Source: Octopus vulgaris (taxonomy: Eukaryota). From it: 64,000 bases of DNA. The stretch covers positions 43,338,001-43,402,000 of the forward strand of contig OX597822.1 of assembly GCA_951406725.2 (NCBI GenBank), read 5' to 3'. The notes under the pieces were generated by a model that did no database searches, had not been told where the DNA came from, and saw only the letters and a list, made by a program, of their open reading frames with translations. Position 1 is the stretch's first letter. The number at the start of each line of letters is the position of its first letter. The position numbers were made by a program, and so were the translations under genes. Of this stretch, positions 62,525-62,835 are shown in pieces.

Positions 62525-62835
62525 TGAAAGAAGGTTTGAAAATGCAAAGGTCTTTTAGAGATGTTTATTGATTTAAAAATACGGAACGCTTCACGAATTC
62601 CATATTCACGGCCGTAGATATTCTAAAATTGGAACGATAATACTGAAAAGATTAGCATGACCCTTGCACAAGGATGACACGCAAATTCGTGAAGCGTTCC
62701 ATATTTTTAAATCAATAAACATGTTATACTATGCACATTGCTAAGGTTGTCATAAAGACCTTTGCGTTTTCAAACCTTCTTTCATATAAATTTTCACTCG
62801 TGCGATACTTTACAACTTTACTTTGTTATATGTAA
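62525..62835. mobile_element. U6-PLE-like chimeric fold-back insertion
   Basis: 62525-62599 is the reverse complement of 62684-62722 plus 62754-62784; the tail shares GCGTTTTCAAAC and CACTCGT with the PLE 3' end at 57189-57229. Confidence 0.7.
62609..62708 (+). pseudogene. U6: U6 snRNA retrocopy (missing about the first 10 nt)
   Basis: CTAAAATTGGAACGATA..AAGATTAGCATG..CAAGGATGACACGCAAATTCGTGAAGCGTTCCATATTTTT matches metazoan U6; ACAGAGA box degenerate (ACTGAAA); no intact upstream promoter context. Confidence 0.93.

What the first reader, a model, noticed from the sequence alone, without database searches (positions are those of the whole stretch)
62525..62835. U6 snRNA joined to a Penelope-like 3' end near the hammerhead cleavage position and integrated as a fold-back
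Seen: an almost full-length U6 (62609-62708) ends in TTTTT with no poly(A) and continues into AAATCAATAAACATGTTATACTA..GCGTTTTCAAAC..CACTCGT. The PLE at 55-57 kb, read from its predicted hammerhead cut (after 57157), runs AAATTCATAAGAAAATTTATCTA..GCGTTTTCAAAC..CACTCGT. An inverted partial copy upstream (62525-62599) spans the U6/tail junction, so the chimera existed before the fold-back formed. Established: mature U6 ends in a 2',3'-cyclic phosphate; hammerhead cleavage leaves a 5'-OH on the downstream product; RtcB joins such ends and is implicated in mammalian U6/L1 chimeras. Inference: ribozyme-cut PLE RNA was ligated to U6 and retrotransposed by a PLE RT, giving a ribozyme-directed RNA-capture route or a U6-headed PLE-dependent element. 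I know of no description of this for PLEs. The junction match is AT-rich and only partial (14 of 23 by eye).
Basis: partly seen in the sequence, partly recalled or inferred. Interest (0 to 1): 0.85.

Follow-up and report, generated by a model that had tools for sequence, protein, structure and literature searches.

The report
U6 captured at Penelope ribozyme cuts
Copies of the splicing RNA U6 are fused, with no extra base, at the predicted self-cleavage site of seven related retrotransposon families in this genome, likely because a cellular RNA ligase joined U6 to freshly cut transposon RNA, which would be fossil evidence that these doubted ribozymes do cut in living cells.

Summary
The tail is not from the 55-57 kb element but from a sister Penelope-like family (F1). 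Its parent carries a minimal hammerhead, and U6-TTTTT joins exactly the first base after the predicted cut. This junction is single-locus, so it is not an amplified U6-headed SINE. In a census of U6 3' ends (199 of 222 matches listed), 9 of 12 independent U6-Penelope events, in 7 families, lie exactly at the cut, all with five T and no added base. One lies off-site and two are unresolved. A further U6 event and a U6atac event show the same join. Only 4 of 113 ordinary arms stop there. The fold-back in (TA)n is the normal insertion form of these elements. Against a ligation-only reading, 135 U6 copies sit at SINE-type 5' ends with ragged joins, so U6 is also captured without a ribozyme. Best mechanism: hammerhead cleavage, RtcB-type ligation to mature U6, then Penelope retrotransposition (0.55). 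Main rival: a template jump from the cleaved end (0.3). No RNA evidence was obtained.

The parts
62427..62517 (.). (TA)n microsatellite, left target of the insertion
   Evidence: sequence; repeat listing
62525..62574 (-). Short (inverted) arm of PLE family F1 tail, cut+1 to about +50, ending at the internal TATA motif as in ordinary F1 fold-backs
   Evidence: alignments; short-arm ends of other F1 copies
62575..62599 (-). Inverted copy of the U6 3' end (20 nt + five T), same junction register as the forward arm
62600..62607 (+). Filler at the fold-back turn, resembling the U6 3' end (CCATATT)
   Evidence: sequence
62608..62708 (+). U6 snRNA copy lacking the first 9 nt, of the C1 tandem-gene type, with a 3-nt insertion and several substitutions; ends in exactly five T (62704-62708)
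   Evidence: Rfam RF00026 83.8 bits; alignment to gene copy L039
62709..62830 (+). Long arm of PLE family F1 tail, starting at the first base after the parent's predicted hammerhead cut; 26 nt extra relative to the parent; runs into TA/TG microsatellite
55215..56564 (+). 5'-truncated ORF (RT end, GIY-YIG) of a sister PLE family; not the parent of the tail
   Evidence: identity to F1 ORF pieces 38-52%
57121..57157 (+). Minimal hammerhead motif of the sister PLE (U3-A8 core, predicted cut after 57157)
   Evidence: descriptor match

Best explanation
The locus is a retrocopy in which U6 ending in five U is joined without any added base to the first nucleotide after the predicted hammerhead cut of a Penelope-like element, most likely because the ribozyme cut the element's RNA, an RtcB-type ligase likely joined its 5'-OH to the predicted 2',3'-cyclic phosphate of mature U6, and the element's own reverse transcriptase then likely copied the fused RNA into a (TA)n site as a fold-back. 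Shown: the anatomy, the exact junction, its recurrence in seven families, single-locus status. Inferred: cleavage in vivo (about 0.9), the end chemistry in this animal, the ligase, and the order of steps. The product is a dead retrocopy: it lacks the hammerhead core, the ORF and the external U6 promoter.
For: (1) In parents of F1, F2, F3, F4, F5, F6, F8 the motif core + stem II + GAAA (GCAA in F5) + palindrome + UH ends exactly at the base where U6 joins; stem I (mostly 4-6 bp; 3 in the one F2 copy, 2 in F5) fixes the same register. (2) Census chosen on U6, not on the cut: 9 of 12 PLE-tailed events exact (10 loci, L049/L069 merged); binomial 4e-12 at a 3% chance per event, 1.7e-7 at 10%. (3) Only 4 of 113 non-U6 arms that reach the cut stop within 0-1 nt, 100 run through the hammerhead. 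(4) All 9 have five T and no added base against 40 of 135 SINE-head joins (Fisher 3.6e-5); 57 of 135 SINE joins carry an extra C. All 18 arms of 9 fold-backs have a 5-nt spacer (15 pure T, 3 with one substitution). (5) PMC6789731 (passages): major U6 ends in 5 U with cyclic phosphate, U6atac too; RtcB joins it precisely to a ribozyme-made 5'-OH and not to a 5'-triphosphate. PMC7229834 (passages): RtcB ligates hammerhead-cut retrozyme ends, including a mussel one. (6) In family F5, 3 of 14 loci ending at the cut carry U6 or U6atac (classed by eye), against 46 U6 joins for roughly 43,000 SINE-A heads (rough). (7) A stall at the hammerhead helix would put joins at the base of stem I, 4-7 nt downstream, not at +1 (inference).
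Against: U6 (135 of 202 junction rows) and U6atac (25 of 30 loci) are joined to SINE-type 5' ends, and U6 to another U6 5' end (2 rows), ends RtcB should not accept, so a non-ligase route for capturing these same RNAs works in this genome; U6atac at the F5 cut therefore does not discriminate. One PLE junction is 41 nt off the cut (L073) and still has five T; two are unresolved (L066, L071). The T-run test is inflated by SINE leaders that may begin with T. No Rfam hammerhead appeared among the 150 of 191 matches listed for 8 parent loci. F1 lacks the usual G10.1-C11.1 pair and F5 has GCAA and 2 contiguous stem I pairs. PMC11167929 (parts 1-2 read) found no RNA-seq reads at the anole PLE cut and the ribozyme dispensable in vitro; PMC4209133 (parts 1-2 read) found low activity. 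No RNA reads, and no RtcB or Usb1 gene search, were obtained here.
Confidence: 0.55

Rival explanations
1. The hammerhead cuts the RNA, the PLE reverse transcriptase runs off the cut 5' end and jumps end-to-end onto the 3' end of U6 without adding bases; no ligase is involved.
For: Predicts the same junction position. U6 and U6atac are captured at SINE heads and U6 heads in the same genome, with TSDs round the whole U6+SINE unit in 5 of 24 SINE-B rows, as a jump would give. Template jumps have been proposed for PLEs (PMC3846280, passages) and shown for R2 (reference title seen in PMC4494074).
Against: The SINE joins are ragged (T-run 3-9, extra C in 57 of 135) while the PLE joins are uniform; plain truncations at the cut are not clearly enriched (4 of 113), yet U6-type capture there is roughly a hundred times more frequent per available 5' end than at SINE-A heads (rough). 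Both could be properties of a different enzyme.
Confidence: 0.3
2. No cleavage: the reverse transcriptase stalls at the hammerhead fold, or DNA repair joins U6 cDNA through T-rich microhomology, and the join only looks like the cut.
For: PLE hammerheads are weak in vitro and reads at the cut were not seen in anole (PMC4209133, PMC11167929). F4, F6 and F8 have TT just before the cut. Forward-arm insertions and the filler at the turn show repair-like events at this locus.
Against: F1, F2, F3 and F5 have C or A before the cut, so no microhomology; the join is at +1 in seven families whose stems differ in length and sequence; ordinary arms show no clear pile-up there.
Confidence: 0.08
3. A U6-headed non-autonomous element amplified by PLE machinery, like SINEU.
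For: F2, F3 and F5 each have two independent loci with the same junction; L049 and L069 share one odd internal join.
Against: The F1 junction pattern matches one locus only, both arms; same-family loci differ in U6 extent, turn point or tail variant; snRNA promoters are external (PMC4494074, passage) and five T would stop Pol III before the tail (own knowledge).
Confidence: 0.03
4. U6 pseudogene and PLE fragment inserted separately and abut by chance.
For: Repeat-dense, AT-rich genome.
Against: Same junction on both arms of 9 fold-backs; no U6 TSD; exact register in 7 families.
Confidence: 0.01

Closest known systems
U6/L1 and U6atac/L1 chimeric pseudogenes of mammals (PMC6789731, passages read)
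   Same: U6 at the 5' end, same orientation, T-tract at the join, co-integration by the partner's reverse transcriptase; RtcB ligation of U6>p to a 5'-OH is the proposed route.
   Different: Partner is a Penelope-like element, not L1; no poly(A) or TSD; the join is fixed at a ribozyme cut encoded by the element, whereas the paper reports variably truncated L1, 4-8 T, no specific site and an unidentified nuclease.
EN+ Penelope-like elements with minimal type I hammerheads (PMC4209133 parts 1-2; PMC8557442 passages; PMC11167929 parts 1-2)
   Same: C-terminal GIY-YIG ORF, pLTR hammerhead with U3-A8 variant and palindromic helix III, inverted 5'-truncated copy, a tail on one arm only, microsatellite targets.
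   Different: A host snRNA replaces everything upstream of the cut. These papers report no in vivo evidence of cleavage; one raises that the ribozymes may simply parasitize PLEs.
Non-LTR retrozymes (PMC7229834 passages; bioRxiv 10.64898/2026.07.22.740005 part 1)
   Same: Type I hammerhead ends that RtcB can ligate; PLE-related.
   Different: They self-circularize from tandem units; here the cut end is joined in trans to U6 and the hammerhead is lost.
SINEU, snRNA-headed SINEs (PMC4494074, passages)
   Same: snRNA sequence at the 5' end of a retroposed unit.
   Different: U1/U2 heads amplified from master copies; here independent one-off events with U6/U6atac.

Membership tests
EN+ Penelope-like element (tail's parent F1) | RT plus C-terminal GIY-YIG ORF upstream of the pLTR | tested here: met
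   L351/L011 give aa 104-445 of the window PLE protein at 38-52% identity, ending 1145 nt before the F1 cut through UTR shared with other F1 copies. The Pfam hit is on the window protein only; two broken F1 fragments gave none. Also met for F4, F5, F6; not shown for F2, F3, F8.
EN+ Penelope-like element (tail's parent F1) | Inverted 5'-truncated copy with a tail on one arm only, in microsatellite | tested here: met
   Short arm ends near +50, long arm near +97, as in ordinary F1 fold-backs.
Minimal type I hammerhead | Core C3/U3-UGAN-G8/A8-A, stem II, GAAA, palindromic helix III, NUH, stem I | tested here: met
   14 of 22 F1 copies fit the descriptor ending at the junction base, 12 with 4 contiguous stem I pairs; 1/2 F2, 9/17 F3, 16/19 F6, 6/7 F8, 32/90 F5, 12/146 F4 (F4 denominator inflated by a low-complexity probe, F5 by copies selected to lack the motif).
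Minimal type I hammerhead | G10.1-C11.1 pair | tested here: not met
   F1 has U opposite U at this place; present in F2, F4, F5, F8 (sequences).
Minimal type I hammerhead | Match to a curated Rfam hammerhead model | tested here: inconclusive
   None at gathering in the window; none among 150 of 191 listed matches for 8 parent loci. Minimal variants were found with a custom descriptor in PMC4209133.
Minimal type I hammerhead | Self-cleavage at the predicted bond | not testable with these tools
   Needs in vitro assay or end-mapped RNA.
U6/L1-type chimeric retrocopy | U6 with T-tract 5' of a same-strand retroelement 3' part, co-integrated | tested here: met
U6/L1-type chimeric retrocopy | L1 partner, poly(A), TSD, variable truncation point | tested here: not met
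   PLE partner, no poly(A), no TSD, fixed join.
U6/L1-type chimeric retrocopy | Chimeric RNA made by RtcB before reverse transcription | not testable with these tools
   No RNA reads examined.
snRNA-headed SINE (SINEU-like) | Many copies from a master element | tested here: not met
   One locus for the F1 junction.
Non-LTR retrozyme | Tandem units each with a hammerhead | tested here: not met
   No hammerhead core or tandem unit at the locus.

The most novel reading that the evidence does not exclude
Penelope hammerheads cut sense RNA in vivo at the predicted bond, and host RtcB caps the cut 5'-OH with U6 or U6atac so often that a large share of integrated cut ends carry an snRNA. Genomes then hold a nucleotide-resolution fossil record of ribozyme activity that can be read in any PLE-rich animal, and ribozyme-plus-ligase is a general route by which PLEs capture host RNAs bearing cyclic phosphates.
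Probability: 0.5. Interest if true: 0.88.

Novelty: new variant of a known kind. Interest (0 to 1): 0.8.

Why it matters
Whether the minimal hammerheads of animal Penelope-like elements cut in cells is open: they are weak in vitro, dispensable in the one reconstituted system, and no reads were seen at the cut. Under both leading mechanisms these junctions mean that sense-strand RNA cut at the predicted bond was reverse transcribed, in seven families, including atypical cores (U3-A8, GCAA). They also give the U6 ligation-versus-template-switch question a natural test with a defined 5' end, next to an internal comparison class (U6 at SINE heads) in the same genome. The locus itself is probably functionless.

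Tried and rejected
The 55-57 kb PLE as parent: rejected, only a patchy alignment against about 95% for F1 outside the insertions. Amplified U6-F1 family: one locus. U6 TSD: none. Rfam for hammerheads: uninformative, dominated by microsatellite hits. RNAfold of the 57 kb motif gave stem II only, as expected for a dimer-type ribozyme. Parents of L071, L074 and L079 were not found among held loci. The extra C in SINE joins as read-through from U6 genes: not supported, similar in both gene types (14 of 37, 16 of 39). U6atac as proof of ligation: rejected, since 25 of 30 U6atac loci are at SINE-type heads. Arm geometry as proof of a covalent RNA: not decisive; the short-tail arm reaches further into U6 in L064, L067 and L069, but L049/L069 suggest the spacer can flip later. 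RNA reads: none examined. Literature: no paper holds Penelope + hammerhead + U6 snRNA (0) or U6 snRNA + template jump + retrotransposon protein + ribozyme (0); listings showed none describing this, but the library lacks most subscription papers and no supplements were read. Earlier scan findings: nothing on this genome; three unrelated notes.

Full report
Observation. Rfam places U6 at 62600-62708 (83.8 bits). Against a tandem U6 gene copy (L039) the true match starts near 62608, carries a 3-nt insertion and several substitutions, and ends in five T. The arm at 62525-62599 is an inverted copy of 20 nt of U6, five T and about 50 nt of tail. The unit lies between (TA)n and TA/TG repeats with no other direct repeat of 10 nt or more. 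The window is G000:C9:43338001-43402000 of a 2.8 Gb genome; its repeats look cephalopod to me, which is recalled and comes from no call.

Parent of the tail. The 55-57 kb PLE aligns only patchily. A genome search with the tail found family F1 (865 candidates, 40 scored, 30 loci taken). F1 copies read TTGATAA, stem II, GAAA CCGG TC, then AAGTCAAT: a minimal type I hammerhead with the U3-A8 core described for PLEs (PMC4209133, parts 1-2 read). The window reads U6-TTTTT then AAATCAAT, the first base after the predicted cut, with one substitution shared by both arms. F1 is a GIY-YIG PLE: L351/L011 hold ORF pieces 38-52% identical to the window PLE protein, ending 1145 nt before the cut. The F1 junction pattern matches only this locus.

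Census of U6 joins. An exact 21-nt U6 3' anchor has 222 matches (123 + 99), 199 listed. I fetched nearly all listed loci, leaving out five of six near-identical C1 copies and adding one late that was not scored. One search scored 202 junction rows (both arms counted, one mismatch allowed): 135 at SINE or short-element heads, 2 at a U6 head, 65 other (true genes, internal SINE/LINE joins, microsatellite, unassigned, PLE tails). PLE-tailed loci number 13; L049 and L069 share an odd internal join and are counted once, giving 12 events. Parents were taken and from flanks. Exactly at the predicted cut: F1 (window), F2 (L049/L069, L070), F3 (L063, L064), F4 (L065), F5 (L067), F6 (L076), F8 (L075), that is 9 of 12. 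L073 is 41 nt downstream; L066 has 13 unmatched nt before F4 homology and L071 has no parent in hand; both are counted as misses. The chance of 9 or more of 12 is 4e-12 at 3% per event and 1.7e-7 at 10%. PLE ORFs upstream were shown for F1, F4, F5 and F6, not for F2, F3 or F8.

Controls. Of 113 non-U6 arms that reach the cut in five families, 100 run through the hammerhead, 13 stop within about 14 nt and 4 within 0-1 nt (these arms are conditioned on reaching the cut, so the comparison is approximate). A search for F5 copies lacking the two G before the cut gave 106 matches, 100 listed. By eye about 45 are a longer-tailed subfamily, about 25-30 are mutated hammerheads, and 14 loci end at the cut. 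Three of the 14 carry an snRNA: L067, a second U6 fold-back (L334) and U6atac (L333, RF00619 80.6 bits), all with five T. Rfam on 20 of these loci found only the U6atac. An independent U6atac search (43 matches, 30 loci taken) gave one likely gene, 25 SINE-type heads, three others and one PLE tail, at the cut.

Junction quality. All 9 at-cut events have five T and no added base; at SINE-type heads the T-run is 3-9 with five in 40 of 135 (Fisher 3.6e-5) and an extra C in 57 of 135. SINE leaders can begin with T, so this overstates the contrast. All 18 arms of 9 fold-backs keep a 5-nt spacer. Exact SINE-A heads occur 8 times in 0.52 Mb of fetched flanks, roughly 43,000 per genome, against 46 U6 joins; for F5 cut ends the share is 3 of 14. 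Both figures are rough.

Mechanism. PMC6789731 (passages) states that the major U6 ends in five U with a 2',3'-cyclic phosphate, that U6atac does too, and that RtcB joins it precisely to a ribozyme-made 5'-OH but not to a 5'-triphosphate. PMC7229834 (passages) shows RtcB ligating hammerhead-cut retrozyme ends. The best reading is cleavage, ligation to mature U6, then PLE-driven integration in (TA)n; the fold-back with a tail on one arm is the ordinary PLE form (PMC8557442 passages; two start sites and both-strand priming in PMC11167929, parts 1-2). The strongest rival is an end-to-end template jump from the cut end. It is live because U6 and U6atac are captured at SINE heads and U6 heads here, with TSDs round the whole unit in 5 of 24 SINE-B rows. 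Both readings need cleavage at that bond, which I put at about 0.9. Against cleavage stand low in vitro activity (PMC4209133), no reads at the anole cut (PMC11167929), no Rfam support and atypical F1 and F5 motifs. No RNA data and no RtcB or Usb1 gene search were obtained, and U1, U2, U5, 5S and 7SL controls were not run.

Novelty. It works like the mammalian U6/L1 chimeras but is not one: the partner, the integration marks and the fixed ribozyme-defined join differ. It is not a SINEU-like family or a retrozyme. Ten paper searches showed no description; the library is incomplete and supplements were not read. Verdict: real, recurrent, a new variant of a known kind, of high interest because it gives genomic evidence on whether PLE hammerheads cut in vivo and makes ligation versus jumping directly testable.

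Noticed in passing
G000 genome-wide, L031-L060, L163-L302, L353-L382: Most U6 (135 of 202 rows) and U6atac (25 of 30 loci) copies are fused to the 5' ends of three tRNA-type SINEs and of short GGCGGTG-headed elements, with ragged T/C linkers; some have a TSD round the whole unit (L038, L044, L257, L285, L295). U6atac copies are numerous (43 matches) relative to U6.
   Followed up: partly
L173, L246, L071: U6 joined head-to-tail to another U6.
   Followed up: no
L068, L198, L228: U6 3' ends running directly into (TA)n; L068 has two U6 copies tail-to-tail across a (TA)n run.
   Followed up: no
L185 (G000:C4:80599050): U6 followed by a sequence that looks like a 5S rRNA 5' part by eye; not checked against Rfam.
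   Followed up: no
G000:C1:139422700-139429850; L032; L034; L353: Likely true genes: a tandem cluster of seven U6 copies and two single U6 genes, all with an upstream ATGCAAAT or ATGCTAAT octamer-like motif, and a likely U6atac gene.
   Followed up: partly
Family F5 (L124-L142): Young family whose hammerhead has GCAA for GAAA and a weak stem I, yet three snRNA joins mark its cut. About 25 listed copies have small deletions just upstream of the cut; these may be assembly errors in fold-backs or re-joined trimmed ends.
   Followed up: partly
L049 and L069 (G000:C3, 0.36 Mb apart): Share an unusual internal U6 rearrangement but with the spacer inverted and different flanks: one event re-copied or converted.
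   Followed up: partly
window 62719-62753: 26 nt present only in the forward arm; the two arms also match different F1 variants at two adjacent bases. Unexplained.
   Followed up: partly
window 57340-57470; 14193-14272; 41254-41521: A U6-free fold-back of family F2, an F8 hammerhead-tail copy, and another PLE endonuclease fragment.
   Followed up: no
G000:C1:132.42-132.53 Mb: Six near-identical U6-short element joins about 20 kb apart, likely a tandem segmental amplification.
   Followed up: no
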